DNA of 64,000 nucleotides, taken from positions 1-64,000 of the IMG/VR virus record IMGVR_UViG_3300045919_000631; one strand, written 5' to 3'. The notes under the pieces are model-generated. The model was not told the DNA's origin. It did not search any database and saw only the letters and a program-made list of their open reading frames with translations. This document shows positions 16,421 through 31,598 of this stretch, piece by piece; position 1 is the first letter of the stretch; every line of letters starts with the position of its first letter. Source of the DNA: a virus. Both the position numbers and the translations under genes were made by a program.

Positions 16421-16422
16421 GT

Positions 16423-18483: not shown

Positions 18484-18487
18484 AAAG

Positions 18488-18563
18488 TGGTGGTAGTAGA
18501 GGAAATCGAATCCCCAACATTCCGCTAATCGGGCGGACGCTCTACCAATTGAGCTATACTACC
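18488..18563 (-). tRNA. tRNA-Ile(GAT)
   Basis: tccgc-ccGATta-gcgga. Confidence 0.9.
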
Positions 18564-18686
18564 AAAAAGTCATTAGATTTCAAAATCCTTAGCCCTCAGA
18601 ACATTTTTTTTTTCTGATTATTTTTCGTTGGCTCAAAATCTCAATACAACTGAACCTTGATCTGTGTAAGTAAGTTTCATTGAATT

Positions 18687-18702
18687 ATTATATTTTTGTT
18701 CC
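18687..18702 (-). promoter_or_regulatory. GGAAC-N5-TATAAT promoter
   Basis: ggaac-aaaaa-tataat. Confidence 0.7.
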
Positions 18703-18707
18703 TAAAT

Positions 18708-18782
18708 TGGTGCGCCGGACAGGGATCGAACCTGCGACATTCTCGTTGGCAACGAGATGCACTACCGCTGTGCTACCGACGC
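18708..18782 (-). tRNA. tRNA-Gly(GCC)
   Basis: tctcg-ttGCCaa-cgaga. Confidence 0.93.
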
Positions 18783-18789
18783 ATTGAAT

Positions 18790-18866
18790 TGGCAGGCCCG
18801 CATGGATTCGAACCATGTCAAAAAGCTTCAAAGGCTTCTGTGCTAAAACCGTTACACCACGGACCC
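18790..18866 (-). tRNA. tRNA-Gln(TTG)
   Basis: gaagc-ctTTGaa-gcttt. Confidence 0.92.
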
Positions 18867-18872
18867 ATAAAA

Positions 18873-18948
18873 TGGATGCCAAGGAGGGACTCGAACCCAC
18901 AACCTAATCCTTCAGAGGGATCCGCGCTACCAATTACGCTACTCGGCA
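18873..18948 (-). tRNA. tRNA-Gln(CTG)
   Basis: gatcc-ctCTGaa-ggatt. Confidence 0.92.
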
Positions 18949-19010
18949 AAAATCAGGTGTATTAGGTTCCTGTAAACTTCACTAATACACTACTCTTTCG
19001 AGTGTGAAGA

Positions 19011-19088
19011 TGGCTCCGGCCCGTGGTAACGATCCACGCTTAACACGGGTAACAACCGTGTGCTTAACGCCATGCCAGCCCGACCGGA
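19011..19088 (-). tRNA. tRNA-Asn(GTT)
   Basis: cacgg-ttGTTac-ccgtg, U1-A72, G73. Confidence 0.87.
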
Positions 19089-19094
19089 ATAAAC

Positions 19095-19430
19095 TTATTT
19101 TAAATCATCAATTCTATCAGCTCTCAATCCTGTATTTGGAATGATTTGAATGGCTCTATCATCCCAAATCTGAACCGCTGTGTAATCTTTTTGATTGGTG
19201 ATCTCCATATCAATTCCGTGCTTTATTAGCCAGGTTTTAATTGCTGGAATCGCATCTGGATTGGATGCTCTTGCTGTAAAAAGCTTTACTGTTTGTCCTG
19301 ATGTAAGCCATCGACGAACCCGTAGGAGCATTAAAGGTACAGGCTCGCCGATATGTTCATGGCCCTTATACCCATCGTACTGAGCAAGTGTGCCGTCTAG
19401 ATCAACTAAAATTACACCAGAATTGTTCAT
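19095..19430 (-). CDS. HAD-family phosphatase (Pnkp 3'-phosphatase-like)
   Basis: DLDGTLA, FTAR, IWDDRA. Confidence 0.8.
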   Translation of the reverse strand: MNNSGVILVDLDGTLAQYDGYKGHEHIGEPVPLMLLRVRRWLTSGQTVKLFTARASNPDAIPAIKTWLIKHGIDMEITNQKDYTAVQIWDDRAIQIIPNTGLRADRIDDLK

Positions 19431-19435
19431 TTCAA

Positions 19436-19451
19436 ATTATAATAATGTTCC
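19436..19451 (-). promoter_or_regulatory. GGAAC-N5-TATAAT promoter
   Basis: ggaac-attat-tataat, ATG 5 nt downstream. Confidence 0.7.
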
Positions 19452-19528
19452 AGTCACTGGGTTTGCTTTGCAAACTTTGTTTCGTTTATGACTACAGAAA
19501 TAAGTGAGCTGGAACAATAAATACTTAT

Positions 19529-20158
19529 ATGACTACAGAATTTCTACCAGAGTGTATCTCTGCTTTTAAAGCTTCACGAAAATGTGGAATTTATAAATTA
19601 ATAAGTCCTAACGAATATTACTATATTGGATCGTCTAATAATATTAGGCTACGGTGTTTAAATCACCTGCATAGGCTTAAAAATAATACCCACCCTAACC
19701 CACGCGTACAAAATAAATTTAATGCACATCCAAGTGATTGGAAGGTTTTAATTTTGGAGGAATGTGTTGAAGACTGTATTCTTACAATTGAACAAAAATA
19801 TTTAGATAAAAATTATGGGTTAGAACTTTGTATGAATAATAATCCAATTGCTGGCAAACCTCCGACCAATACAACAGGTATCGGACGCTTTCTAGGCGGT
19901 AAACACGCTCCAGAAGCTAGAGCTAAAATATCAGCAGCAAATATAGCTCGATCAACACCAGAATATAGAAAACGTATGTCTGATATCACAAAATTAAATG
20001 GTAATAAACCACCCAGCCACCCGATTGGGTATATAGTACCTTTAAGTGTGCGCGATAAAATCAGTAATACCCTAAAAGGTCATACAGTTTCTATAGAAAC
20101 GAGAACAAAAATAAGTAATACTTTGAGAAAAAGAAAAGACTTTAAACTACTCATTTAA
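19529..20158 (+). CDS. GIY-YIG homing endonuclease with NUMOD3-like repeats
   Basis: GIYKL...YYIGSS...R...H...EQ; KHAPEARAKIS, HTVSIETRTKIS. Confidence 0.9.
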   Translation: MTTEFLPECISAFKASRKCGIYKLISPNEYYYIGSSNNIRLRCLNHLHRLKNNTHPNPRVQNKFNAHPSDWKVLILEECVEDCILTIEQKYLDKNYGLELCMNNNPIAGKPPTNTTGIGRFLGGKHAPEARAKISAANIARSTPEYRKRMSDITKLNGNKPPSHPIGYIVPLSVRDKISNTLKGHTVSIETRTKISNTLRKRKDFKLLI

Positions 20159-20659
20159 AAATTTCTCCATTTTATTTAAAATTTCATGCGCTACATCTTC
20201 GCGTAGTAGCTGATTCATATAGCCCATGAAAGGTCTAACGTTTATAACCTTGAGCGGCCCAATATCAGAAAGAAATGCTTTCTTTGATTCAAGTGGTAAA
20301 TTAAAACCGTTATCAGGCAAATCATCAACGAGAACAGAACGACCAACTGGAAAATTAAGCTTCTCAACGTGACTGTTTTGAGTATCTTCTCGAGCATAGA
20401 TATTACCCCGGTCAAAGCCAAGATCAAAAGTGTCTACCATCATATGCGCATACTCTCTACATGCTGCTGTGAGCATATAAACATCGCTGTATCTCTCTCT
20501 AACAAGCTTTAGAAATTCTTTTGCACCAGGACGCAGAGTCGTATAATACTTTGATCCATCAGGAAATACAATTCGGGTTGCTCCACCTGGCAAATTGCCA
20601 TAAGCATATTGCGAGTGAATGAGCGTTTCATCGAGATCAATAAAAATATATTTGTTCAT
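20147..20659 (-). CDS. HAD-family NIF/FCP1-like phosphatase
   Basis: IDLDETLIHS, LRPGAKEFL, VLVDD. Confidence 0.82.
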   Translation of the reverse strand: MNKYIFIDLDETLIHSQYAYGNLPGGATRIVFPDGSKYYTTLRPGAKEFLKLVRERYSDVYMLTAACREYAHMMVDTFDLGFDRGNIYAREDTQNSHVEKLNFPVGRSVLVDDLPDNGFNLPLESKKAFLSDIGPLKVINVRPFMGYMNQLLREDVAHEILNKMEKFLNE

Positions 20660-20904
20660 TGTAATTCTTCTTTTGTTAAAGCCCAGCGTGTGCCTGTAAA
20701 TCTAGAGGCTATTACTTTTTTGTTTCTTAACTTTTTCCAATACCTCACCATTGCATCATCAGAGTCCCACAAAAACGATCCAAAGGGTTTTGATTGTATC
20801 CCATCTTTATTCTCTGGGCCAGTGGTCTTAAAAAAGAGTAAATTAGTCTTAATGAATTCAGGACCCTCTTCTATCGCATCAACACCAGCTAAAAAATTGT
20901 TCAT
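20656..20904 (-). CDS. hypothetical protein (FLxGxDAIE N-terminal family)
   Basis: MNNFLAGVDAIEE. Confidence 0.65.
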   Translation of the reverse strand: MNNFLAGVDAIEEGPEFIKTNLLFFKTTGPENKDGIQSKPFGSFLWDSDDAMVRYWKKLRNKKVIASRFTGTRWALTKEELQ

Positions 20905-21872
20905 AAAAATACTTCTTTAAATTTCTGCATGACGTTCTTTGGGGAGAATCTCTCTGTATACATATCACACTCAAAGGCGTTAACTTTAGCTTTATTAATC
21001 TTAATCATTTTCTCGTACAAATCTTCCAAGCCACTATACAATATGGCTTTAGTGCCAAGAATATCTAAATGAGCTCTATCATATTGATGAACCATTTGAT
21101 TATCCCACCAGCCGTCCCAAGTAAAGATTGCTTTGCCCATTGCACTAAATTCAGCAACAGCAAGACCAAAAGTCTCGCCATCAGCTCTTGCATGAATCAT
21201 TGCATCTGCGGTGTTAATAAATTTACGTTTATACGTTCCATCAACATCAGCATTAAAAGGTAAAAATTTAACGCGTGAGTGGTCAATAAAAGGCGTTGTG
21301 TTCATAAACACGAAATACAAATCAGGCCGTCTATCTAAAGCAGCTAAAATTGCAGCATGGACAAATGGTAGGTTAAATTGATCCTTACCACCTAGTCGCC
21401 CAAACACAAATGCATCCTTAGGAATGCTTAGCTCGTCACGCAAATCCGTATCAATGCGAGGCATATCAACTATATGCGGAACCCACAGCGGTTGGCTGTA
21501 TTTTTTCGCAATATATTCTGATACACCTGCATAGACATCACCATAGGGCTCAGTCATGACAAAAACGCAATGAATGCCAACTTTACAGTTATTTGGAATC
21601 CAATCTCTTGTACCCCAACGAGCCATAACGATGACATCTATTTTCTCTTTGTCGATGATCTTCGGTAAATCATTTTGCATGTCGTCGTAAAGAATACAAC
21701 GAACATTTGCTTTCTCAAATTTTTCAATGGGCATAGTGCCATTGCCAATGTTGCCTTTACCGCTAATGGCAAATGCATCCAATCCTAAAACTGATTGCAA
21801 ACCTTTTGCGTAATCTAACGCAACAACGCCAGTGCCGCGCTCTAATGTATTAACGTGAAAAGCAACTTTCAT
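20901..21872 (-). CDS. GT-B glycosyltransferase (GT4-like)
   Basis: ERGTGV, DAMIHARADGETFGLAVAEF. Confidence 0.85.
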   Translation of the reverse strand: MKVAFHVNTLERGTGVVALDYAKGLQSVLGLDAFAISGKGNIGNGTMPIEKFEKANVRCILYDDMQNDLPKIIDKEKIDVIVMARWGTRDWIPNNCKVGIHCVFVMTEPYGDVYAGVSEYIAKKYSQPLWVPHIVDMPRIDTDLRDELSIPKDAFVFGRLGGKDQFNLPFVHAAILAALDRRPDLYFVFMNTTPFIDHSRVKFLPFNADVDGTYKRKFINTADAMIHARADGETFGLAVAEFSAMGKAIFTWDGWWDNQMVHQYDRAHLDILGTKAILYSGLEDLYEKMIKINKAKVNAFECDMYTERFSPKNVMQKFKEVFL

Positions 21873-22081
21873 AAATTTAGAATGTATCCAAGCCCATCAC
21901 AGCTTTCACATGGACCAGATCCATAATTTTCGCCCCAATCTGGATGAGGACACGGCAATACTGCTACTCCTTGTTCATCCCAATATTCTCTGCCAGATCT
22001 GTCACATGCTGGGCATTTTCTATACGTCTGTTTGCCAGTGATTATGTTTCTAAGAGTCTCTGTCTCTATTTCGATAAACAT
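21869..22081 (-). CDS. small DnaJ-type Zn-finger-like protein
   Basis: CPACDRSG...CESCDGLG. Confidence 0.7.
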   Translation of the reverse strand: MFIEIETETLRNIITGKQTYRKCPACDRSGREYWDEQGVAVLPCPHPDWGENYGSGPCESCDGLGYILNL

Positions 22082-22086
22082 TCAGT

Positions 22087-22102
22087 ATTTTATGAATGTT
22101 CC
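22087..22102 (-). promoter_or_regulatory. GGAAC-N5-TAAAAT promoter
   Basis: ttgaca...ggaac-attca-taaaat, ATG 5 nt downstream. Confidence 0.75.
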
Positions 22103-22120
22103 TAGTAATGTCAAGAAAAA

Positions 22121-22196
22121 TGGAGCCCAAGATCAGGATTGAACTGATGACATCTGCGCTACAAGGGCAGCACTCTACCAACTGAGTTACATGGGC
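22121..22196 (-). tRNA. tRNA-Thr(TGT)
   Basis: ctTGTag loop, CCA. Confidence 0.88.
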
Positions 22197-22211
22197 ATGC
22201 TAACAAAAAAA

Positions 22212-22288
22212 TGGTCAGTATGAGATGAATTGAACATCCAACCTCTTGAACCCAAATCAAGCGCTCTACCAAGTTGAGCTACATACTG
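22212..22288 (-). tRNA. tRNA-Pro(TGG)
   Basis: cttga-ttTGGgt-tcaag, C1-G72. Confidence 0.92.
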
Positions 22289-22382
22289 AAAAAGTTATTT
22301 ATGAGCCGGGCAATTGCATGCCTATGCATCTCCATATAGGGACTTTAACCCATGGGACTAACTCACGCCATATCTGGCAAAT

Positions 22383-22460
22383 TGGTGGAGAATAGGGGCA
22401 TCAAACCCCTCTGTATCATGATTGCAAATCAAGCGTCCACATCAAGCAGACCCATTCCCC
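22383..22460 (-). tRNA. tRNA-Ala(TGC)
   Basis: ttTGCaa loop, G3:U70. Confidence 0.88.
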
Positions 22461-22795
22461 AAATCTAAAATTATTTGATCAACGTTGCCTATCAGCAACT
22501 TGATGTTATTTTCTCTTACCACTGCTTCAAGTTTTTCTTGATCAAGCTTTAATTTATACTCATTTTTAGGATCAAGATAAATATCTCTATCAGGTAAATA
22601 GAAATCTGGATAATATCTTCGTTTCCTACCGTTGCTGTCAGTCCAATAAAATTTTATTTCACGTGATCGCTCCCATCTAATATTTTTCTCATCTAAAAAT
22701 TCTGCTAACTTTACTTCCCAACTTGAGTCCATCCAAATATCTCTATATTTGTATTTATGGTAATTTGTTTCTCCACCGCAATTTGGATTCGCTGT
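22442..22795 (-). pseudogene. N-terminally truncated PD-(D/E)xK (TnsA-like) homing endonuclease
   Basis: DSSWE...RRYYPDFYLP..IYLDPK; the frame continues upstream (ANPNCGGETNYHKYKYRDIW) to an in-frame stop with no start. Confidence 0.6.
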
Positions 22796-22830
22796 AATTT
22801 ATGGTGGACTGACAAAGAATCAAACCATAT

Positions 22831-23043
22831 TTATCGATTTACTGTCCAAATATCATCTAAATCGTTTTGCTCATCTTCCTCGGATGGCTCCATACCAAAA
22901 GTATCATATGCTGAATCTTCTGGATTCCATACTTGCTCACCAGAAAACAAATGCTCTCCTTTGGCATTCTTTCCAACTGACTTGGAGCCTTTTAAAATTC
23001 TGTATCCAAGAGCGCTCCACTCTTTGAATGTTTTCGTTGTCAT
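22831..23043 (-). CDS. hypothetical protein
   Basis: KTFKEWSALGYRILKGSKS resembles ArdC-like ssDNA-binding motif. Confidence 0.6.
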   Translation of the reverse strand: MTTKTFKEWSALGYRILKGSKSVGKNAKGEHLFSGEQVWNPEDSAYDTFGMEPSEEDEQNDLDDIWTVNR

Positions 23044-23335
23044 AAAATGTTTGGAGCCCTAGGGTGCAAAATGCATCCCGAACTCCGCCTTCGCATAATC
23101 GCTACCTCGAGTACTTAACGCGACTTTCGGTTCAGCTTTTTTGGGTTTAGGTTGAGAGTAGAGCACAACACGAACGTACCGAGCTCCGATAGTCCGATCA
23201 CTGATGCTTTGTGAGTGATACAAACCTAAAATTGGTATATGTCATACAGATCCGGCCATATACAACCGCCTGCGACGTTCGTCGTTCGCACCCCCCTGTG
23301 TTTTTATTTCAATTGCCTTTCAGGTCTTGCAAAAT

Positions 23336-23412
23336 TGGTGCCCCCGCTCGGACTTGAACCGAGAACCTGACGCTTAAAAGGCGCCAGCTCTGACCAATTG
23401 AGCTACAAGGGC
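23336..23412 (-). tRNA. tRNA-Lys(TTT)
   Basis: ggcgc-ctTTTaa-gcgtc. Confidence 0.93.
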
Positions 23413-23464
23413 GAAAATGGTGGACCTACTGAGTGTTATGACTTATTCTTTTCGGCCCGTAAAA

Positions 23465-23872
23465 TGGTGTAGGCGGCCGGATTTGAACCGGCGTGTATGC
23501 TGCCTTGTCAACCAGTTTCTACAAGTTTAGATTTATAAAATTCATAACGAGCAGCATAAATCAAACTGCATCGCAATTACTCTAACATTCTAACTTTCTA
23601 CTAGAACTGCGGATAAGGTTAGCCAACTCCGCAGTGCCATCTCACTGTTACGATTTGGTAGATAGTGAGAATCTTTACCAACTCGTTCACCTTTAATTAG
23701 GCGAATGAGAGCTCTCCGGACGGGATGGTGACTAGGTCACGAACCTTCGCGAAGAAACTCTTAACTGAATTTACAATGTTGTTTATTGTTTGAAGCGATA
23801 TTAAAGAGCATTGCATCATTGCTCTACTTGCTACTGGACTTTCCGGCATCATATAGAATCCAGAACGCCCAC
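23465..23872 (-). ncRNA. ssrA: tmRNA
   Basis: 5' gtgggcgttctggattc, 3' gccggttcaaatccggccgcctacacca, G3:U70; internal tag frame 23780-23697 ending ELSFA*. Confidence 0.9.
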
Positions 23873-23891
23873 AAATTCAAAGAACATCCAA

Positions 23892-23907
23892 ATTATACTG
23901 AAGTTCC
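23892..23907 (-). promoter_or_regulatory. GGAAC-N5-TATAAT promoter for tmRNA
   Basis: ggaac-ttcag-tataat, ~20 nt before the tmRNA 5' end. Confidence 0.75.
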
Positions 23908-23918
23908 AAAAGAAAAAT

Positions 23919-24014
23919 TGGTGGTCCTATATTTCGTTTCCATTTGAACTACTCCCCAAATTTTACAATTGATATTATTTGGCTTTCATTCTGAGTCTAC
24001 CGCAGCCTAGGACC
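23919..24014 (-). ncRNA. CCA-ended tRNA-like element without canonical T/anticodon arms
   Basis: 7-bp ggtccta/taggacc plus ACCA. Confidence 0.55.
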
Positions 24015-24027
24015 TATGGTGGCAAAA

Positions 24028-24103
24028 TGGTGGGTGCACCGGGACTCTAACCCAGAACCAACTCCTTAAGAGGGAGCGACTCTAACAATTGAGCTATACA
24101 CCC
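24028..24103 (-). tRNA. tRNA-Lys(CTT)
   Basis: gctcc-ctCTTaa-ggagt. Confidence 0.9.
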
Positions 24104-24113
24104 AGAAAATTAA

Positions 24114-24326
24114 TTGAGTATTGCCGGGCTTGATTCCGGCTCAATGTGTTCTCACACGACTGCACCATCTCAGTTTACTGCAATCAGGGCTGCGTTACTT
24201 CTGAGCGCGACTTCAGACATTCCGCTGCGGCCGGTCGCTGGTTTCCGTGTTTATCACCAGTGCAGATTTTATTCCAGATCTCAACCCATACCCCTGTTGC
24301 GTGGGTCCATCCCCACCGATACTCAA
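24114..24326 (-). ncRNA. ~210-nt unclassified structured RNA
   Basis: terminal stem ttgagtat/atactcaa, D-like and T-like hairpins at each end, GC-rich. Confidence 0.65.
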
Positions 24327-24330
24327 AAAA

Positions 24331-24408
24331 TGGCGTCCCTGAAGGGATTTTAACCCTTGTTGATGCATTGAGAATGCAGTTTCCTAAGACAGACTAGAAG
24401 ACAGGGAC
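24331..24408 (-). tRNA. tRNA-Glu(CTC)
   Basis: tgca-ttCTCaa-tgca, G73. Confidence 0.85.
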
Positions 24409-24741
24409 GTTCTGTTGCAAAGCTTCATCGATCTTTGCTTGAAACTCTGGGCTCTCATATCTATTAATAAGAGCTGCAAAGTATCTATAAAGGCTTGTAT
24501 GTGTTGGACGCGAGCGAATCGTATCAACAATTCCTCGATAAGCGGCAACAGACATTCGCGCTTTGAAGCGCTGTTCATTTACGAAGTTGATAGAGACCTC
24601 TTTTGCTTTTTCGATATCATCATCGTAATTATTTTTAATGATACCAAACAATGTTCGGAAAATGGAAGGGTGTGCAACATTCTCTTTCCCCGTTGCTTGA
24701 CCTTTCCATGATTGGAATTGCTTACCAAGGTTATGAATCAT
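24394..24741 (-). CDS. hypothetical protein
   Basis: 115-aa ORF behind GGAAC promoter. Confidence 0.65.
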   Translation of the reverse strand: MIHNLGKQFQSWKGQATGKENVAHPSIFRTLFGIIKNNYDDDIEKAKEVSINFVNEQRFKARMSVAAYRGIVDTIRSRPTHTSLYRYFAALINRYESPEFQAKIDEALQQNVPVF

Positions 24742-24749
24742 GCAACATA

Positions 24750-24765
24750 ATTATATCACTGTTCC
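24750..24765 (-). promoter_or_regulatory. GGAAC-N5-TATAAT promoter
   Basis: ggaac-agtga-tataat. Confidence 0.75.
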
Positions 24766-24782
24766 GTGTGAGAACTTTAAAA

Positions 24783-24857
24783 TGGTAGCCCCACCGGGAT
24801 TCGAACCCGGATAATCGCAGTGAAAGTGCGGTAAACTAACCGTTATTCTATGAGGCC
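24783..24857 (-). tRNA. tRNA-Glu(TTC)
   Basis: cgca-ctTTCac-tgcg. Confidence 0.92.
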
Positions 24858-24939
24858 GTAAATTGGTATCACGTTCAGGTGTTATTTTAACGCGATGGAA
24901 GTATCCTAACTGGTCCTGTTGCTACTGCAGTAGCGAGAT

Positions 24940-25014
24940 TGGAGGCAGGGACGGCGTTTAAATCCGTTGCTGAAGGTTATGAGCCTACTGAGTTATCACA
25001 TACTCTACCCTGCG
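24940..25014 (-). tRNA. tRNA-Met(CAT), initiator-like, divergent
   Basis: ctCATaa loop, C1 mismatch, cgcaggg 5' end, atypical T-loop. Confidence 0.72.
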
Positions 25015-25022
25015 TCAAAAAA

Positions 25023-25099
25023 TGGTACCAGGTGAGGAACTCGAATCCCCAACATCTTGAATGTAAATCAAGTGCTCTAACCAATTGAGCTAACCCGGC
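25023..25099 (-). tRNA. tRNA-Val(TAC)
   Basis: cttga-ttTACat-tcaag. Confidence 0.92.
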
Positions 25100-25104
25100 A
25101 TAAC

Positions 25105-25226
25105 AAAGTACTTTTTATTAGATCGGGGTTTAAAGCCGATTTGCCTTAACCATTAGGCTATCTTGGCATGGAGCCAGGAGTTGGATTTGAACCAACGTGT
25201 CTTTTAGACATTGCTGTGAGTACTTT
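25105..25226 (-). ncRNA. circularly permuted tRNA-like RNA (Y RNA/YrlA-like topology)
   Basis: order V-arm, T-arm, acceptor 3', loop, acceptor 5', D-arm, anticodon-like arm, closed by aaagtact/agtacttt. Confidence 0.75.
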
Positions 25227-25230
25227 TAAC

Positions 25231-25291
25231 TAAGCGCATTTATTTTCGAGATAATAGTTCGAATTTTATTTTGGATTGCTGTGTGCGCTTA
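25231..25291 (-). ncRNA. short CACAGCAA-motif hairpin RNA
   Basis: taagcgca/tgcgctta stem followed by cacagcaat, as in the neighbouring element. Confidence 0.55.
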
Positions 25292-25297
25292 AAGATG

Positions 25298-25381
25298 TTG
25301 TAAGTGTACTGCCATACTATACTATGCGAGACCCGGCTAAACGTAATCCAGCAGGAGACTTCGAACCTCCCCTTCTTACAA
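25298..25381 (-). ncRNA. second circularly permuted tRNA-like RNA
   Basis: ttgtaag/cttacaa closing stem, T-arm ggagg-ttcgaag-tctcc, closed acceptor hairpin, D-arm with GG. Confidence 0.68.
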
Positions 25382-25383
25382 AT

Positions 25384-25459
25384 TGGCACGTCCGGCCGGA
25401 GTTGAACCGACATAAGGTGGATTTGGAGTTCACTGCCCTACCACATGGACCACAGACGT
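25384..25459 (-). tRNA. tRNA-Trp(CCA)
   Basis: ctCCAaa loop, G73. Confidence 0.9.
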
Positions 25460-25665
25460 GTAAAATTTGTAGTCCATTTTTCATCATGTTACCATGGGAT
25501 GGACCGATCCGTTTCCACTCTTTAGTCTGGAAGCTCAGCGAGCTTAGGGCTCGGAACCTTATTAAGATTCTTACACTCTACTGCAACCACTCTTTTGCGC
25601 AGCATAATCTCCAGCGAACTTTGTGATCGTTGCCAAAGGTGTCTGCGCTTACATTGAGCAGAAAT

Positions 25666-25760
25666 TGGTGCTAGTTTTATCTGAATCTTGCCCTTGGGCC
25701 TAATAAGAACTGCAACTTAATCAGGATACGAGGCTTGCCAACATCAGACCTTTAACTAGC
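25666..25760 (-). ncRNA. CCA-ended non-cloverleaf RNA
   Basis: 7-bp gctagtt/aactagc plus ACCA, inner tctga/tcaga. Confidence 0.55.
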
Positions 25761-25769
25761 AAAGGAAAT

Positions 25770-25844
25770 TGGTGGTAGAAGAGGGGCTTGAACCCTCAAC
25801 CTTATCCTTATGACGGATTTGCGCTACCATTGCGCCATTCTACC
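25770..25844 (-). tRNA. tRNA with CAT anticodon (Ile2 or elongator Met)
   Basis: atcc-gtCATaa-ggat; acceptor resembles the phage tRNA-Ile(GAT). Confidence 0.85.
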
Positions 25845-25848
25845 GAAA

Positions 25849-25923
25849 TGGTGGGCCAAGAGGGACTTGAACCCCCAACGCCGAGATCTTCACTCTCGCG
25901 CTCTACATTGGAGCTATTGACCC
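25849..25923 (-). tRNA. tRNA-Phe(GAA)
   Basis: cgaga-gtGAAga-tctcg. Confidence 0.9.
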
Positions 25924-25967
25924 ATTTAAATTGAATGCCTAGCATTTCTGCTAGGACTTTTGTTTTC

Positions 25968-26063
25968 TTATTCGCTACAAGACTTGTTGTTGTAGTCTTC
26001 GTGAGTTATTACTCCAACTAAAGCAACAGCCAAATAGGCGATTATGATGGTTACAATTTGCAT
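25968..26063 (-). CDS. 31-aa membrane microprotein
   Basis: MQIVTIIIAYLAVALVGVITHEDYNNKSCSE with AAGGA upstream. Confidence 0.45.
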   Translation of the reverse strand: MQIVTIIIAYLAVALVGVITHEDYNNKSCSE

Positions 26064-26150
26064 TGTTTCCTTTGTCCTTAGAACTGATGCCCGTAGGTTA
26101 ACCAGTTGTTAAAATGGTGGGATTAATAGTAATCGACTTCTTAAAAGAAA

Positions 26151-26226
26151 TGGCCCCCACACGGGAAATCGAATCCCGATAAATGGATAGACAATCCATG
26201 GTACTAAGCCGTTGTACGATGTGGGG
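26151..26226 (-). tRNA. tRNA-Asp(GTC)
   Basis: atgga-ttGTCta-tccat, G73. Confidence 0.88.
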
Positions 26227-26233
26227 CTTTAAA

Positions 26234-26851
26234 TTACAGCCAGCTTGGTCCTTTTTGATCAACTGGAATTTTTAAAATCTTTCTTACTAACCATTTTACC
26301 CACCAATACGCGGTGAGCTTTAATGATTGAAATTTTAAGAGCGTATGATTACCAACAATAATTGAAGCACCATAACGCTTAACAACTCTTACATGGCCTG
26401 CTGTTTCGTGGCAAAGTTTAGTGACATCAACGATACTACCACCATAGGCTTGATCGCTCCAATTGTCAACTAAAATATCTGCTCCCATTCTGTTTCCAGA
26501 ACCTTTTACAACACCTCGTAAAATTGCGTGGCTTGCTCCTTTTACACTAAAAATTTGATTACCAAGACCATTTTGCGATTCACCGAATGAACCGTGTAGC
26601 ATTGTCGTGGCGTGATTATTAATATCAACCGAGCATTCAGCTCCTTGATTGACTACTAGACCGCTGAGACTTACGATACTAAAATCGCAAATCTTTAAAA
26701 TGCTTGCATATTGCACAGGGTGATCTGGCGTTAATACGGCATTGTCTCCTGGGTTATTTGCTGGTGTTGGATTAGAACTACCGGCGTTTGATTCCCAGAC
26801 ATTGTTGCTTACTGATAGGTAATTAACATCTACTTTGGTTGAACTGCTCAT
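26234..26851 (-). CDS. hypothetical beta-rich protein with C-terminal amphipathic helix
   Basis: true start MSSSTK behind TAAATA; the ORF-track extension overlaps tRNA-Tyr. Confidence 0.7.
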   Translation of the reverse strand: MSSSTKVDVNYLSVSNNVWESNAGSSNPTPANNPGDNAVLTPDHPVQYASILKICDFSIVSLSGLVVNQGAECSVDINNHATTMLHGSFGESQNGLGNQIFSVKGASHAILRGVVKGSGNRMGADILVDNWSDQAYGGSIVDVTKLCHETAGHVRVVKRYGASIIVGNHTLLKFQSLKLTAYWWVKWLVRKILKIPVDQKGPSWL

Positions 26852-26868
26852 GATGTTATTTATTAAAA

Positions 26869-26953
26869 TGGTGGGCATAGAAGGACTCGAACCTTCGGAG
26901 ACGTTAGTCAGCTGATTTACAGTCAGCCACAATTGCCGCTATGTGATACACCC
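26869..26953 (-). tRNA. tRNA-Tyr(GTA)
   Basis: gctga-ctGTAaa-tcagc, long variable arm. Confidence 0.93.
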
Positions 26954-27208
26954 GAAACTGCGCAGTCTCTCCTGCTGTCAAGCCTAGATCATCGCGCTCG
27001 GCTTTCAGGCTAAATTGGCCTGGCTTTTATTTAAAGACGATCCAGGGCTCGTCATAAAGAACAACTAACTTATTGACTCTTCGTCCTCACAAGCACGGAT
27101 TTACATCCTTCCTGGTTTTGGGGCCCGCAAAACATTTCCTATAATAAGAAATGGCGGCTATTTCATACGCTTCGAGGCGCGCTTTTGCCTATATCTAAAT
27201 TGAACTGT

Positions 27209-27243
27209 AAAAGAAAACCCTAAGCTTTTTGGGCTTAGGGTTA
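27209..27243 (-). terminator. conditional intrinsic terminator (attenuator B:C)
   Basis: aaccctaagc-ccaaaaa-gcttagggtt-ttctttt. Confidence 0.85.
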
Positions 27244-27269
27244 AAAGTAAAACTGTCTTTAACCCTAAG
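27234..27269 (-). promoter_or_regulatory. antiterminator hairpin (A:B)
   Basis: perfect 12-bp cttagggttaaa/tttaaccctaag, mutually exclusive with the terminator. Confidence 0.8.
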
Positions 27270-27354
27270 ATGTCCCTTTATCTGCCAAACCATGTGGTTC
27301 TAGCGCAACGTTCGAGTTGCTTGTAAACCAAATTGTTTGATACATTGAGAGCAT
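27265..27354 (-). CDS. attenuator leader peptide (29 aa)
   Basis: MLSMYQTIWFTSNSNVALEPHGLADKGTS*; its TAG lies in antiterminator strand A. Confidence 0.75.
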   Translation of the reverse strand: MLSMYQTIWFTSNSNVALEPHGLADKGTS

Positions 27355-27385
27355 TTGTGAAATTATTTAATCTAACTTCCGGTAT

Positions 27386-27401
27386 ATTATAGTATAGTTC
27401 C
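27386..27401 (-). promoter_or_regulatory. GGAAC-N5-TATAAT promoter at head of RNA array
   Basis: ggaac-tatac-tataat; an additional TAAATA at 27364-27369. Confidence 0.75.
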
Positions 27402-27447
27402 TGAAATTCAACCTATTTATTTTTGGGATATGAATGGGGCTTAATCT

Positions 27448-27825
27448 TCATTTACCAAAAAAGAAGAGATAATCATCGTGATTAAGCTCGAGTCTATCAT
27501 TTTTGTTCGCGCTAAGAACTTGGAGCCAACCATTATATGCTTGCACGAGCTCATGATGCTCCATAATCTTTTCTTGACATTCAGTTAGATCACGCTGAAG
27601 AGTTGCATCAATCCGAATCTGTGGACTAAAAGAGCCTTTTGTATTAGAGTAACTAGCAGCAACTGAATCATGGACTTCAATGCCACCGTCCCCAATACTC
27701 TTCATCACTTCTTTCTTTTTATTTTCCCACCATTCAAATTTAGCTTGATGAGTATCTCGTTTAGTCAGCGCCGCTGAAGCTAGTTCCGATGCTGTATATA
27801 AAAATTTCCATTCGTGACGTTTCAT
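27448..27825 (-). CDS. hypothetical helical protein
   Basis: 125-aa ORF. Confidence 0.7.
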   Translation of the reverse strand: MKRHEWKFLYTASELASAALTKRDTHQAKFEWWENKKKEVMKSIGDGGIEVHDSVAASYSNTKGSFSPQIRIDATLQRDLTECQEKIMEHHELVQAYNGWLQVLSANKNDRLELNHDDYLFFFGK

Positions 27826-27828
27826 AAA

Positions 27829-28470
27829 TTATTGATATAGATAGGGTTTCCATTCTTCTCTGATTACAGTACCCTCAGGTACAATTTGATGCAAGTTAAT
27901 ACCTTTTAAGGGTTTTACTTCTTTACCGTGGATATCGTAATAAGGAAAATGGCTATCTTTTTTATTATTGCATTCCCAGCAAGCCAGCACTAAATTAAAA
28001 TCATCATTGCTTCCACCTTTGCTTTTTGGGAGACAGTGATCCTTAGTTGCTGCGCTATATGGAATCTTTTCGTAGCAATATTGACATACACCTTTGTATA
28101 TGTCATAGAGCCGACGAAGAGAAATACTTTGACCGCTTTTTGGACGGTGCCCAAAGTTTCTTGTGCAGACTAAAATTGTGGGGATTGCCCAGCATCTATC
28201 TTCTCCAGTTAACTGATCTGGAGCAGAACGAAGACAAGGTTGGTCGTCAAAAAGTGATACTTCATTGTTAAACCAGCGTAGAGTATTAATCCCTTCTCCA
28301 AGCACTAAATCAGCTCCGTGCCAAGACACAGCATTACCTACAGCATCGATACCTTTTACACGGCCGCACATAAGGTGCCGAAAAGCAGCGCGAGCAGTAA
28401 TGACGTTGAACGCTTCGTGCGCAACGTTGCAGATTAAACTTGTGCGAGTATGTGGAGCTACAACTTTCAT
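27829..28470 (-). CDS. HNH endonuclease (McrA-like)
   Basis: CQYC...TKDHCLPKSKGGSNDDFNLVLACWECNNKK. Confidence 0.9.
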   Translation of the reverse strand: MKVVAPHTRTSLICNVAHEAFNVITARAAFRHLMCGRVKGIDAVGNAVSWHGADLVLGEGINTLRWFNNEVSLFDDQPCLRSAPDQLTGEDRCWAIPTILVCTRNFGHRPKSGQSISLRRLYDIYKGVCQYCYEKIPYSAATKDHCLPKSKGGSNDDFNLVLACWECNNKKDSHFPYYDIHGKEVKPLKGINLHQIVPEGTVIREEWKPYLYQ

Positions 28471-28533
28471 TCAGAATAATGCCGAGGCTGGGCTTACCAT
28501 ACCTCGGCTGGTTATAATTATAATATCCAGGAT

Positions 28534-28758
28534 TTACTTAGCGACTACACCGGACTGATTGAGAGCTGACGCAAGATCACGAGCATCAACTGGAGTCCAT
28601 TCAGACTGCCATTGATTAATCACGTTCAAAACCTTTGCACCATCTCCAACAATACGGAAAGAACCGTCATTGACGCGCTCAAGTGTGATGTTGAAACGCT
28701 TTGGTCTGACAGACTTATTAGCTAAATAACTATTCCATTGTTCGTTGATTTTCTTCAT
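28534..28758 (-). CDS. hypothetical protein
   Basis: 74 aa, GGAAC promoter upstream, hairpin downstream. Confidence 0.7.
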   Translation of the reverse strand: MKKINEQWNSYLANKSVRPKRFNITLERVNDGSFRIVGDGAKVLNVINQWQSEWTPVDARDLASALNQSGVVAK

Positions 28759-28765
28759 ACACTCT

Positions 28766-28781
28766 ATTATAGGTTAGTTCC
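28766..28781 (-). promoter_or_regulatory. GGAAC-N5-TATAAT promoter
   Basis: ggaac-taacc-tataat, ATG 7 nt downstream. Confidence 0.75.
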
Positions 28782-29122
28782 GGAAAAAACAAGGTATCTC
28801 TTATGTTCTTTCAATAACTTTTTCTTTAGTTGTGTCTGCTGAGTTATCATCAATGGGCAGTGCCCATGCTGATGTAATCAGTTTTATTGGTTCGGTACTA
28901 CCTTGTAAAATAATTACTTGGCCAGGCGCTAGTTCAATTAGTTCGTCGGGCTTCATCCATTCCCTATTCCACTTTTATTGCAAGGATCTGCATTTGCGTC
29001 ATACTCCTCTTCAATAGGCACAATAAAAGTTGTGAGCAACGTTTTATACGGTTGAGTAGTTCCTTGAAGGTAAATAATCTCTCCAGGCTTTATTTCTATT
29101 ACTTTTTTAGGGTCCCAGGTTG

Positions 29123-29341
29123 TCATAAATTTGTTACTTGCTGATGAACGAAAATAATTTCCATCTCAAAATCTTTTTTACTCTTGCAAAGAGCTTGTTG
29201 CCTAAAAATACACTGCGCATTTTCACTTTCACTTTGAAAGGTCAAATCCGGGTTATCAAAAACACTCACAAACCCAGATCGGTCATAAACAAATAAATAG
29301 CCACTCATTTTGGCTCTATATACTATATCTTTCGGATCCAT
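29123..29341 (-). CDS. hypothetical protein
   Basis: 72-aa ORF. Confidence 0.5.
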   Translation of the reverse strand: MDPKDIVYRAKMSGYLFVYDRSGFVSVFDNPDLTFQSESENAQCIFRQQALCKSKKDFEMEIIFVHQQVTNL

Positions 29342-29472
29342 TTAATTGAATTGTATATCCAAAAGCTCTTGATAAAGTTCTCTCAATAAACGCGCGGCGA
29401 TTGCTGCTTGTTCATTGTTAAGACCTTCTCCTCGAGCTACGGAAGATTCTATGGTGATAATAATTCTATCAA

Positions 29473-29958
29473 CTATTTCTGCTTGCATAAATTTGCTGGA
29501 AACTCTATAGGGTCAAATTGAATCCGTTTTTTAATTTGCATATAGGCTCTTAATACTTTGTATCTATAATGTTGAGCATACTTCACTGCGTCGATTTCTG
29601 CTGGTGAATTTTTATATTTCTCAGGCGTGCTTTCATCATACATTGCGTTTGTATGAGGGATTCTTATAATCTTGTATTGTATAAAGTGTCTAAGCTCATG
29701 TAGCAAATCTACAATAAAATTTGCTGAGTCTTTAATCTCTTGTGACATGTAAATTGTATGCACAAGACCTGGCTCTACTCGATAATACGAATACCATCCT
29801 TTTACCAAGCGAATTGAAATTTGATATTTCTTTGTGGGTCTTTTGTGGTGAATACATTCTTCCTTTAGAATTGAAGATAGTATAAGTGATAAAACTTGAA
29901 AATCGATACTAAACTTCTTTAAAATTCCTTGAGAAGGTTTAAACTTAATATGGCACAT
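29473..29958 (-). CDS. putative zinc metallopeptidase
   Basis: LLHELRHFIQY...PAEIDA (HExxH plus distal E). Confidence 0.75.
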   Translation of the reverse strand: MCHIKFKPSQGILKKFSIDFQVLSLILSSILKEECIHHKRPTKKYQISIRLVKGWYSYYRVEPGLVHTIYMSQEIKDSANFIVDLLHELRHFIQYKIIRIPHTNAMYDESTPEKYKNSPAEIDAVKYAQHYRYKVLRAYMQIKKRIQFDPIEFPANLCKQK

Positions 29959-30241
29959 CTTCTTCGTCTTTTACGGGGAATCTTGCAGGCTTATATTCGC
30001 TTCCAGAGAGCTCTTCCATTTCAAGTGCTCTGATATATTCAGCCTCTTTTATAATGTCTTCGGGCATTTTTGAAGCAGTTGTTGAACGTGCAAGCCTCCG
30101 CTCAAATTCATCTTCTGTAATTAATTCAGCCATAGATCTATCAAAAGCTTCTTGGCTTGAACGATCCCATCCATCGGGATCTAAAACTACTCCATCATAT
30201 GTTTTAAGCCACTCTATGCTACTCTTTTTAACAGGTTCCAT
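29945..30241 (-). CDS. hypothetical protein
   Basis: VLDPDGWDR motif; GGAAC promoter at 30256-30271. Confidence 0.65.
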   Translation of the reverse strand: MEPVKKSSIEWLKTYDGVVLDPDGWDRSSQEAFDRSMAELITEDEFERRLARSTTASKMPEDIIKEAEYIRALEMEELSGSEYKPARFPVKDEEDVPY

Positions 30242-30289
30242 TTGAGATAAATGCTATTTTAATGTTGTTCCTTGATAAATATTAAAACG

Positions 30290-31510
30290 ATGATTTCGCG
30301 ACCAATTTCAGATGTGTATGCTCGTATTATTCTTAATGAGTATAGCGAAGGGTTTATTAAAGCTCAAATGGAGCGTTTAAAACGCTCAGCTGGTCCACAC
30401 GTGACTGAAGAAATGATGCGCTCATATATTGAGCGATTTGATCAATTAAAGTCAGGACAGGCATCGAAAGCGCAAATTATCCAGCTTGTTAGACAATTTA
30501 TAGCAGGTGGTCAAATCGCTGCTGATCCGCAATATGGTCCAAGAGATGCTGAGCGCATTAAAAAATTAGCGGCAAATCCGCTTGAGCTTGGGTTTTATAA
30601 CTGGCATGATTTGGAAATCGTCAAGGACTCATTTAGAGATCCTGCTGATAAAAAAGCACAAAAAATGGCTAATCCTGAGGACACAGGAGCGGAATTGATT
30701 TATAATGATCATGGTTTTCAGATTTATTGGGCTGAAGATATGAACGCTTGTATAAAGTTTAAGCAGTGGATCACAAATAAAACAGCAAAAAGTGGTGAAA
30801 CTGGTAATGCGTATGGATGGTGTATTAGTTATAAACCATCCAGTAATCTATACGCAAATTATCGATTTGGAAAAGATAGAGCGAATGCTAGCATTTATTT
30901 CGTTGTTGATTGGAACATCCCACCAAGCAATCCAAACCATTGTATCGTTTTAATGGCTTTACAAGATGGTCGGTACAGATTATCTGATGCAACAAATAAC
31001 ATGTCAAGAGAAACTGTCACAGGATGGGACACTGTTGTTCAATGGATTCCAAAGATTCGTGATTTGAAAGGATTGATTACGTTTAAACCATTTTCTGAAG
31101 CAGAAGAGCTTTACAATATAACTCGCACAGCTACAGCTGCTGACTTTGCTGGATATACAAGATATAATGTTAAGCAGGCGTATATCGGTGCTGGTAAGCC
31201 AATTAATTCTGAAGACTATCTCAAACTCCCTCAAGAGTTGCAGCATTTATATGTTAATGTTCGCTGCCCAACGCCAGAAAATGATAACTTGAATTTGTTG
31301 CTGTATGGTATCTTTGCTAATACAGACGCTGATAGAGTTAGAGCTGCGATTAAAACTGTTAGAGATTTATACTTACAGAAAGACCCAAATTACAGAGAGC
31401 CTCTATTGTGTGAGCCAACTGTGATGAAAGGCGATAATCAAACATACAAATATTATCGCAAACTTGTCAACGATGCTATCGAGGCAAAAGGTAAAGGTCG
31501 AAGAAACTGA
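30290..31510 (+). CDS. hypothetical late protein
   Basis: ~406 aa, GWCIS...YANYR...IYFVVD motif, TAAATA at 30276. Confidence 0.75.
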   Translation: MISRPISDVYARIILNEYSEGFIKAQMERLKRSAGPHVTEEMMRSYIERFDQLKSGQASKAQIIQLVRQFIAGGQIAADPQYGPRDAERIKKLAANPLELGFYNWHDLEIVKDSFRDPADKKAQKMANPEDTGAELIYNDHGFQIYWAEDMNACIKFKQWITNKTAKSGETGNAYGWCISYKPSSNLYANYRFGKDRANASIYFVVDWNIPPSNPNHCIVLMALQDGRYRLSDATNNMSRETVTGWDTVVQWIPKIRDLKGLITFKPFSEAEELYNITRTATAADFAGYTRYNVKQAYIGAGKPINSEDYLKLPQELQHLYVNVRCPTPENDNLNLLLYGIFANTDADRVRAAIKTVRDLYLQKDPNYREPLLCEPTVMKGDNQTYKYYRKLVNDAIEAKGKGRRN

Positions 31511-31511
31511 G

Positions 31512-31598
31512 TGGTAGGGATAATCGGACTCGAACCGATACACTTTTACAAGTATTTGCTCTTAAGGCAAATGTGTCTACCAATTTCACCATATCCCC
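31512..31598 (-). tRNA. tRNA-Leu(TAA), canonical copy
   Basis: tttgc-ctTAAga-gcaaa, long variable arm. Confidence 0.93.

What the first reader, a model, noticed from the sequence alone, without database searches (positions are those of the whole stretch)
25105..25226. Circularly permuted tRNA-like RNA with internal CCA and UUA anticodon-like loop
Seen, minus strand in order: closing strand aaagtact, CACAGCAA, V-arm tgtc-taaaa-gaca, T-arm gttgg-ttcaaat-ccaac, acceptor 3' strand tcctggc, linker tccat, acceptor 5' strand gccaaga, D-arm gcc-taatggttaa-ggc, atcgg-ctTTAaacc-ccgat, closing strand agtacttt. All tRNA arms are present, but the 3' half comes first. Known: bacterial and phage YrlA-class Y RNAs have a T-arm/closed acceptor/D-arm permutation and bind Ro60/Rsr; processed permuted tRNAs are known from algae and archaea. 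Inference: a Y-RNA-like mimic or nuclease decoy, or less likely the precursor of an ochre-reading tRNA. No Ro60/TROVE gene is in this window.
Basis: partly seen in the sequence, partly recalled or inferred. Interest (0 to 1): 0.85.

Follow-up and report, generated by a model that had tools for sequence, protein, structure and literature searches.

The report
Phage Y-like permuted tRNA mimic
This 122-base stretch in a phage tRNA gene cluster encodes a small RNA shaped like a tRNA with its acceptor end sealed and its ends paired, belonging to a large phage RNA family absent from Rfam 15 that accompanies Ro60-like ring proteins, so it is most likely a viral counterpart of the Y RNAs of cells.

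Summary
Window 25226-25105 (minus strand) folds as described: closing helix, V hairpin, T arm, loop-closed acceptor, D arm and an extra hairpin.

It is not a chance pair of tRNA halves. A covariance model built from this sequence alone finds about 75 full-length relatives in phage tRNA arrays (29-66 bits). Across 24 diverse members, 30 of 32 pairs show compensatory changes, including all 8 pairs of the closing helix.

The family signature is a "handle": a closing helix followed by ACAGCAA. A second, handle-only RNA lies just upstream (25290-25232).

The internal CCA and the UUA/UAA loop are not conserved, so a working or ochre-reading tRNA is unlikely.

Rfam's YrlA model does not match. However, all 5 complete phage genomes with such elements encode a DUF2828 protein whose predicted fold matches Ro60. 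A sister subfamily in jumbo phages sits directly upstream of a hidden Ro60-like gene at 44 loci.

The held half of this genome contains no such gene.

Best reading: the Y-RNA-like partner of a phage Ro60-like protein. Earlier runs of this scan noted the same handle family on other DNA. I found it in no paper searched; one preprint only guesses at such RNAs.

The parts
25105..25226 (-). Whole permuted tRNA-mimic RNA (122 nt), between tRNA-Trp and tRNA-Val
   Evidence: Sequence; MFE fold z -3.7; R2 family model 44 bits; its own model R1 finds relatives at 29-66 bits
25219..25226 (-). Closing helix, 5' strand AAAGTACT (handle)
   Evidence: Pairs with 25105-25112; in 24 relatives all 8 pairs show changes on both sides and 94.8% of cells are paired
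25211..25218 (-). C + ACAGCAA, conserved unpaired motif of the handle
   Evidence: Conserved after the closing helix in family members, including copies that the model found independently of any motif pattern
25198..25210 (-). V hairpin TGTC-TAAAA-GACA
   Evidence: a hairpin of variable sequence sits at this place in most relatives
25180..25196 (-). T arm GTTGG-TTCAAAT-CCAAC
   Evidence: 100% paired in relatives, 4 of 5 pairs covary
25161..25179 (-). Closed acceptor hairpin TCCTGGC-TCCAT-GCCAAGA
   Evidence: 6 of 7 pairs here; all 7 pairs covary in relatives; this is the hypervariable but always paired part in the freshwater subgroup
25143..25160 (-). TA + D arm GCC-TAATGGTTAA-GGC
   Evidence: conserved TA-G..GG..C pattern in relatives
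25122..25140 (-). Extra anticodon-like hairpin ATCGG-CTTTAAACC-CCGAT (9-nt loop)
   Evidence: present in only about 8 of 24 relatives (helix 6); the loop sequence is not conserved
25105..25112 (-). Closing helix, 3' strand AGTACTTT, followed by GTTAT and tRNA-Val
   Evidence: the ...CTT + GT(T/A) ending is shared with relatives
25232..25290 (-). Second, handle-only RNA: AAGCGCA-C-ACAGCAA, 44 nt, TGCGCTT
   Evidence: Sequence; hairpin fold z -2.5; same AAG...CTT helix plus ACAGCAA signature as the family
25299..25381 (-). Weak third unit without handle motif: UUGUAAG, T-arm-like hairpin, closed acceptor (6/7), D arm, CUUACAA

Best explanation
The element is a gene for a stable non-coding RNA of about 120-130 nt. 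It is transcribed with the phage tRNA array and is presumably freed by the processing of its tRNA neighbours (Trp upstream, Val 5 nt downstream). It folds into the upper part of a tRNA (T arm, D arm, acceptor helix closed by a 5-nt loop). Its two ends pair in a helix that, together with the adjacent unpaired ACAGCAA, forms a conserved 'handle'. I infer that the handle docks the RNA on a phage Ro60-like ring protein (DUF2828 type, TROVE-like helical ring plus vWA domain). I also infer that the tRNA-shaped part is displayed to a tRNA-recognising partner, so the particle acts in phage-host conflict over tRNA or RNA turnover, as Y RNAs tether Ro60 to effectors. Shown: the structure, the family, its covariation, and its co-occurrence with Ro60-fold proteins in other phages. 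Inferred: transcription, processing, binding and biological role. In this phage the protein gene would lie on the unsequenced half of the genome.
For: Structure.

Family and membership:
- R1 (built from this sequence only) hits 23 other elements at 29-66 bits in viral and MAG loci and 53 in freshwater metagenomes. T4 gave no R1 match (E<=1) and KVP40 only 10.7-12.6 bits.
- R2, built without the window sequence, hits the window at 44 bits.
- Covariation: 95% of cells paired versus 63% in shuffles and about 39% with slid partners; 30 of 32 pairs carry double changes.
- The elements lie inside tRNA arrays.

Partner protein:
- PF11443 is found in 10 of 15 viral records with window-type elements, 5 of 5 complete ones, and 0 of 14 control genomes.
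- It lies on the same strand, 6-20 kb downstream of the elements.
- Its AF2 model matches Ro60 structures as its top 13 PDB hits (E to 7.5e-9).

Sister subfamily (GGGAAAAC type): it lies upstream of a 544-aa protein at 44 loci. That protein's model also has Ro60 as its top hits.

Cultured phages:
- KVP40, a T4-like phage with about 30 tRNAs, has DUF2828 (KVP40.0300, annotated 'RNA-binding protein') just downstream of its tRNA array, and ACAGCAA handle RNAs inside the array.
- RHph_TM30 has tandem units of the same topology directly upstream of an annotated TROVE gene.

Literature: Bas63 gp130 is Ro60-like by structure and counters the Ppl defence; the authors guess that some of its 'tRNA genes' are Y RNAs (PMC11482910).
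Against: No Ro60-like gene was found in the 109 kb held for this phage. TROVE, DUF2828, a profile of 10 phage DUF2828 proteins and a MIDAS-motif scan were all negative. The two unannotated ORFs near the array are unrelated.

The record is about 52% complete, so this neither supports nor refutes the reading.

The co-occurrence rests on few complete genomes, and the genes lie 6-20 kb apart, not adjacent. Rfam YrlA does not match. No transcript, processing or binding datum exists. The AF2 models are of middling confidence (pLDDT 73 and 66; TM 0.3-0.55).
Confidence: 0.6

Rival explanations
1. A free-standing tRNA decoy or sponge. The sealed tRNA look-alike works without any Ro60-like protein. It would soak up or mislead a tRNA-recognising factor, such as a host anticodon or acceptor-stem nuclease, a tRNA-modifying or CCA-adding enzyme, RNase P, or a sensor of uncharged or damaged tRNA.
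For: There is no Ro60-like gene in the held half of the genome. In the freshwater subgroup the acceptor helix is swapped among at least 10 sequences while always paired, and the rest of the RNA is nearly invariant. This pattern is expected if the helix is a specificity or mimicry module. Some members carry tRNA-like anticodon hairpins.
Against: The most conserved part is the handle (helix + ACAGCAA), which has no counterpart in tRNA. It also occurs on RNAs without any tRNA part (window 25290-25232; KVP40). That points to a dedicated handle-binding partner. All 5 complete genomes with window-type elements have a Ro60-fold gene.
Confidence: 0.22
2. A circularly permuted tRNA gene whose transcript is made into a working tRNA. 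Either RNase P cuts before GCCAAGA and trimming to CCA yields a two-piece tRNA held together by the acceptor and closing helices (as in two-piece tmRNA), or the ends are ligated. It would read UAA (anticodon UUA) or UUA/UUG (anticodon UAA).
For: The loop is discriminator + CCA + 1 nt. The direct re-permuted join is called tRNA-Stop(tta) with a 2-nt 'intron', or tRNA-Leu(taa), by ARAGORN at relaxed settings. No tRNA-Ser or tRNA-Ala was found in the record.
Against: ARAGORN finds nothing at default settings. The loop has 9 nt. A normal tRNA-Leu(taa) already exists at 31512-31598. Among copies found without requiring CCA, only about 1 in 8 has CCA (others: ATGTTA, TTCAT, AATAA, CGAAAG), and the abundant freshwater subgroup has TTCAT. 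About two thirds of members have no anticodon-like hairpin at all. Long ORFs read normally under table 11, so there is no sign of UAA recoding.
Confidence: 0.04
3. Non-functional debris: the 3' half of one tRNA and the 5' half of a tandem duplicate, left by deletions in a decaying tRNA array. The closing stem would be an accident of the palindrome AGTACT.
For: The array contains several degenerate or odd tRNA-like pieces. The flanks share the direct repeat AAAAGTACT. The family model R2 can score 36 bits on a true tandem tRNA junction in T4. Tandem duplication is the likely evolutionary origin of any permuted tRNA.
Against: The same architecture, with the same non-tRNA motif ACAGCAA and a covarying closing helix, recurs in dozens of unrelated phage contigs. 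The window's true tandem junctions score at most 21.5 bits with R2 and at most 13 bits with R1.
Confidence: 0.04

Closest known systems
YrlA, the tRNA-like Y RNA of bacterial and phage Ro60/Rsr (Rfam RF02553; Chen et al. 2014, PMC4201824; structure preprint 10.1101/312249)
   Same: The circular permutation is the same: 5' stem strand, T arm, acceptor helix closed by a loop, UA, D arm, 3' stem strand. There is no chargeable end. It is linked (in relatives) to a Ro60-fold protein, and phage examples sit in tRNA arrays (RHph_TM30).
   Different: There is no match to the Rfam model, whereas RHph_TM30 units reach 36-37 bits. The basal part is a short helix plus ACAGCAA rather than the long Ro-binding stem. 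A V hairpin, and here an extra anticodon-like hairpin, are present. The associated protein is DUF2828 or a Pfam-invisible relative, not a TROVE-positive Ro60.
Bas63 (Felix O1-type) gp130, a Ro60-like counter-defence protein (PhageMaP preprint, PMC11482910)
   Same: It is a Ro60-fold phage protein encoded beside a tRNA array. The authors suggest that some of its 'tRNA genes' are Y RNAs. This is the same kind of protein that I find in genomes carrying the handle RNAs.
   Different: The preprint identifies no RNA. I did not examine Bas63 itself. The present phage is T4-like, and no such gene is in its held half.
Circularly permuted tRNA genes of red and green algae and archaea, and two-piece tmRNA from permuted ssrA genes
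   Same: The 3' half comes before the 5' half, with discriminator-CCA next to the 5' acceptor strand. The likely origin is tandem duplication.
   Different: Those are processed into functional tRNA or tmRNA with a free CCA end. Here the CCA and the anticodon arm are not conserved and the acceptor hairpin stays closed under covariation.
T4 stable RNAs species 1 and 2 (rnaC, rnaD) at the end of the T4 tRNA cluster
   Same: They are small stable RNAs of unknown function embedded in a T4-type tRNA cluster.
   Different: They are not homologous: neither R1 nor R2 hits them, and they are not permuted.

Membership tests
YrlA (Rfam RF02553) | Permuted tRNA-like domain: T arm, loop-closed acceptor-like helix, D arm, ends joined in a stem | tested here: met
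   compare the RF02553 consensus structure shown
YrlA (Rfam RF02553) | Scores at or above the family's gathering threshold (69 bits) | tested here: not met
   No YrlA hit at E<=10 in 401-nt and 284-nt searches. Positive control: RHph_TM30 units score 36-37 bits.
YrlA (Rfam RF02553) | Encoded next to a Ro60/TROVE gene (Chen et al. 2014) | tested here: inconclusive
   No TROVE, DUF2828 or vWA-like gene in the 109-kb record, but the record is about 52% complete
YrlA (Rfam RF02553) | Bound by Ro60/Rsr through a conserved basal helix | not testable with these tools
   Needs RIP or binding assays
ACAGCAA-handle phage RNAs (absent from Rfam 15 and the papers searched) | Closing helix of 7-10 bp (often AAG...CTT) followed within 0-2 nt by ACAGCAA | tested here: met
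   AAAGTACT-C-ACAGCAA ... AGTACTTT
ACAGCAA-handle phage RNAs (absent from Rfam 15 and the papers searched) | Reciprocal covariance-model matches over the full length | tested here: met
   R1 finds members at 29-66 bits. R2 (sister subfamily, window excluded) hits the window at 44 bits. Caution: R2 gives 36 bits to one T4 tandem junction.
ACAGCAA-handle phage RNAs (absent from Rfam 15 and the papers searched) | Lies inside a phage tRNA array on the tRNA strand | tested here: met
   Between tRNA-Trp and tRNA-Val; the same holds in relatives
ACAGCAA-handle phage RNAs (absent from Rfam 15 and the papers searched) | Genome also encodes a Ro60-fold DUF2828 protein | tested here: inconclusive
   5 of 5 complete relatives have one; none in the held half of this genome
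Functional circularly permuted tRNA gene | Re-permuted sequence is a canonical tRNA with a 7-nt anticodon loop | tested here: not met
   ARAGORN at default settings finds nothing; calls come only at relaxed settings; the loop has 9 nt
Functional circularly permuted tRNA gene | CCA (or a processable 3' end) and the anticodon arm conserved among homologues | tested here: not met

The most novel reading that the evidence does not exclude
Phages of many lineages run a second, undescribed kind of Ro/Y-RNA particle. A Pfam-invisible or DUF2828 Ro60-like ring would bind a short 'handle' (closing helix + ACAGCAA, or the two-stem GGGAAAAC form). It would thereby display interchangeable cargo: sealed tRNA look-alikes whose acceptor helices are swapped rapidly, or non-tRNA inserts. 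The cargo would set which host tRNA-directed factor or defence is intercepted. The element in this window and its handle-only neighbour would be two such cargo RNAs.
Probability: 0.3. Interest if true: 0.8.

Novelty: new variant of a known kind. Interest (0 to 1): 0.62.

Why it matters
Y RNAs and Ro60 are best known from animal cells and a few bacteria, and what they do in microbes is still largely open.

This work gives a sequence-defined, covarying RNA family that standard tools miss: ARAGORN, the Rfam tRNA model and the Rfam YrlA model all fail on it. The family is common in tRNA-rich phages, including the cultured KVP40, and it tracks with Ro60-fold proteins. One such protein has been reported to defeat a bacterial defence.

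That supplies concrete RNA partners to test for those proteins. It offers an explanation for some of the unexplained gaps in phage tRNA arrays. It also gives a simple signature (helix + ACAGCAA) for annotating them.

The hypervariable but always paired acceptor helix suggests a specificity module that can be tested directly.

Tried and rejected
**Searches that found no relative of the element**
- Megablast and blastn against GenBank phages found only the neighbouring tRNA-Val.
- My first junction pattern in IMG/VR gave two chance hits in coding DNA.
- Relatives found through neighbouring proteins lack the element. R1 found nothing in 21 such records.
- blastn with relatives' loci against cultured phages returned only tRNAs.

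**Ideas tested and dropped**
- T4 rnaC and rnaD are not related.
- KVP40's 113-124-nt 'pseudo-tRNAs' are normal-order tRNAs with inserts, not permuted.
- I considered that the flanks GTT... and ...AA are halves of a GUN anticodon loop, that is, a tRNA opened at position 37/38. I dropped this because the outer AAG/CTT and TAG/CTG positions covary as pairs.
- A loose genome-wide scan for 'stem + RCAGCAW' has too high a background to be useful.
- TROVE (PF05731) is absent from 58 element-bearing viral records. That would have misled me without the DUF2828 and fold tests.
- MAFFT misaligned the variable ends, so I used model-guided alignments. These lean towards the structure (caveat).

Full report
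**Setting.** The window is the first 64 kb of a 109,280-base IMG/VR virus record estimated to be 52% complete. It looks like a T4-type myovirus with about 39% G+C, carrying nicotinamide phosphoribosyltransferase, a baseplate wedge protein and tail fibres. A tRNA array on the minus strand runs from about 31.6 kb to 12.0 kb. It holds 26 ARAGORN tRNAs, all with an encoded CCA, at least two more tRNAs seen only by Rfam, and a tmRNA. The finding lies in the 284-base gap between tRNA-Trp (25459-25384) and tRNA-Val (25099-25023).

**Observation.** Folding 133 nt without constraints returns exactly that structure: an 8-bp closing helix, a V hairpin, a T arm, an acceptor helix closed by UCCAU, a D arm and a 5-bp hairpin with a 9-nt loop. 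The energy is -32.8 kcal/mol, z = -3.7, and none of 200 shuffles folds as well. ARAGORN and Rfam's tRNA model do not call it. Relaxed Rfam searches give only 13-15-bit partial tRNA alignments and no Y RNA or YrlA hit at E<=10. If the halves are joined in tRNA order, ARAGORN still finds nothing at default settings. It reports a tRNA-Stop(tta) with a 2-nt 'intron', or a tRNA-Leu(taa), only at relaxed settings.

**Finding relatives.** Close relatives of the phage are poorly sampled, and those found through neighbouring proteins lack the element. A structure-guided DNA pattern (T loop, CCA, UA, D loop) found 24 places in IMG/VR. Seventeen were ordinary tandem tRNAs. Seven had perfectly complementary acceptor strands with four different sequences. 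These seven share with the window a motif 5' of the T arm (theirs AAAAGTGTTTACAGTAAT, ours AAAAGTACTCACAGCAAT) and its 3' partner. A second pattern retrieved 63 loci with 37 distinct sequences of this 'GGGAAAAC type'. RNAalifold finds 33 pairs, 17 of them with compensatory changes. A model built from them, without the window sequence, hits the window element over its full length at 44 bits, whereas the window's real tandem tRNA junctions score at most 21.5 bits. One caution: the same model gives 36 bits to one tandem junction in T4, so this score alone is not decisive.

**The window's own subfamily.** A third pattern, and above all the model built from the window sequence alone (R1), found elements much more like ours inside large phage tRNA arrays. 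Each has this layout:
- a 7-10-bp closing helix of variable sequence, often AAG...CTT;
- ACAGCAA within 0-2 nt of the helix;
- a V hairpin, a T arm and a closed acceptor;
- UA and a D arm;
- a short A-rich linker or an extra hairpin;
- the 3' strand of the closing helix.

R1 scores 29-66 bits on 23 such elements, including copies that no pattern had selected. It scores 34-62 bits on 53 elements from freshwater metagenomes. It gave no match in T4 (E<=1) and only 10.7-12.6 bits in KVP40. On 24 diverse members, 95% of pair cells are standard pairs, against 63% after shuffling and about 39% with slid partners. Thirty of 32 pairs show changes on both sides, including all 8 pairs of the closing helix. 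That alignment is model-guided, which favours the structure, but the raw sequences show the same thing. In the collection of bacterial and archaeal genomes only 6 of 77 pattern hits have a closed acceptor, all on phage-like MAG contigs. Rfam 15 has no family over these elements.

**What is and is not conserved.**
- The handle (helix + ACAGCAA), the T arm, the D arm and the closure of the acceptor are conserved.
- The CCA is not. Among copies found without requiring it, about 1 in 8 has it, and the abundant freshwater subgroup mostly has TTCAT.
- The anticodon-like hairpin is present in about 8 of 24 members, and its loop varies.
- In the freshwater subgroup the acceptor helix takes at least 10 different sequences, is 99.6% paired and varies by about 0.9 bits per column, while the rest is nearly invariant.

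These facts argue against a chargeable or decoding tRNA and for a sealed tRNA mimic.

**The window's other units.** Just upstream, at 25290-25232, lies a second handle (AAGCGCA-C-ACAGCAA ... TGCGCTT) around a 44-nt insert that is not tRNA-like. A weaker unit with no handle motif lies at 25381-25299.

**Protein partner.** TROVE (PF05731) is absent from all 58 element-bearing viral records I searched, including 10 complete genomes. Notes from earlier runs of this scan pointed to DUF2828 (PF11443) as a hidden Ro60 relative, and I tested that here.
- PF11443 is present in 10 of 15 viral records with window-type elements and in all 5 complete ones. It is absent from 8 GGGAAAAC-type records and from 14 control genomes.
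- The gene lies on the same strand, 6-20 kb downstream of the elements.
- An AlphaFold2 model (pLDDT 72.8) has Ro60 structures as its 13 best PDB matches over the full length, with E values down to 7.5e-9.
- For the GGGAAAAC type, a 544-aa protein with no Pfam or PHROG hit follows the RNA at 44 loci. Its model (pLDDT 65.8) again has Ro60 as its best matches.
- Cultured phages fit this picture. KVP40 encodes DUF2828 (KVP40.0300, annotated 'RNA-binding protein') 3.4 kb downstream of its tRNA array and has ACAGCAA handle RNAs in the array. RHph_TM30 has unannotated tandem units of the same topology directly upstream of an annotated TROVE gene.
- A preprint reports that the Ro60-like gp130 of phage Bas63 counters the Ppl defence, and guesses that some neighbouring 'tRNA genes' are Y RNAs (PMC11482910).

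**This genome.** None of these proteins is detectable in the 109 kb held. TROVE, DUF2828, a 10-sequence DUF2828 profile and a MIDAS-motif scan of all ORFs of 300 aa or more were all negative, and two unannotated ORFs near the array are unrelated. With half of the genome missing, this is inconclusive.

**Verdict.** The element is a real, conserved, structured RNA gene. It has YrlA topology but is not a member of Rfam YrlA. It belongs to a phage 'handle' family that I found in neither Rfam 15 nor the papers searched. Earlier runs of this scan noted the same family on other DNA. My estimates are:
- about 0.6 that it is the partner RNA of a phage Ro60-like protein;
- about 0.2 that it is a free-standing tRNA decoy;
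- a few percent each for a working permuted tRNA and for debris.

Noticed in passing
window 25232-25290 (-): A second handle RNA without a tRNA part: AAGCGCA-C-ACAGCAA, a 44-nt AT-rich insert with a small hairpin, then TGCGCTT. It lies directly upstream of the main element.
   Followed up: partly
window 25299-25381 (-): A possible third permuted unit lacking ACAGCAA: UUGUAAG, a T-arm-like hairpin, a closed acceptor with a 15-nt loop, a good D arm, then CUUACAA. Its fold is no better than shuffles.
   Followed up: partly
window 17280-17353, 17412-17495 and 24945-25016 (-): tRNA-like genes with T arms and CCA ends (or an odd T loop and a CAT anticodon) that ARAGORN and Rfam miss. Several annotated tRNAs have acceptor mismatches. 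No tRNA-Ser or tRNA-Ala was found in the record.
   Followed up: no
window 23465-23872 (-): A phage-encoded, standard-order tmRNA (87.6 bits) sits in the middle of the tRNA array.
   Followed up: no
window 12019-31598 (-): Nearly every tRNA has its encoded CCA followed by ATT or TTT, and is preceded by a TTT..A-type spacer. This suggests a shared processing signal. The CCA inside the element is followed by TGCC instead.
   Followed up: no
L034:5183-5317, L054:4873-5025 and 35 other distinct loci (alignment A3): A jumbo-phage subfamily with a two-stem handle (GGGAAAAC...GTTCCC). It is found 170-1200 nt after tRNA-Met(CAT) in most loci, between a DnaB-like helicase and a Ro60-fold 544-aa protein followed by an ARPP-1 (PF20208) protein. 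The motif TACAGTAA recurs in the spacer upstream.
   Followed up: partly
alignment A7 (53 freshwater metagenome loci, e.g. L265:349-461): The acceptor helix is hypervariable (10 different 7-bp helices, 99.6% paired) in RNAs that are otherwise nearly identical. This looks like swapping rather than gradual drift.
   Followed up: partly
L329 (KVP40 NC_005083) 3633-3755, record 169632-169754: A handle-like hairpin (GACATT-TT-ACAGCAA ... AATGTC) encloses the ribosome-binding site and start codon of the DUF2828 gene KVP40.0300. This could be autoregulation by the protein.
   Followed up: no
L329 13302-13417, 14968-15091, 15102-15214: KVP40 'tRNA-Pseudo-3/4/5' (113-124 nt) are normal-order tRNAs whose anticodon region is replaced by a 40-50-nt insert containing CTGA(C/T)AAG.
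   Followed up: no
L179 (RHph_TM30 MN988521.1) 1976-2090, 2155-2229, 2721-2866: Three unannotated permuted tRNA-like units lie in the 1.2-kb gap upstream of the annotated TROVE gene. The first two score 36-37 bits with Rfam YrlA, below the gathering score; the third was detected only by R1 (30 bits).
   Followed up: partly
L111:5852-6477, L117:3837-4428, L151:8713-9309: ROOL RNAs (279-323 bits) lie in the same phage tRNA arrays as the handle RNAs.
   Followed up: no
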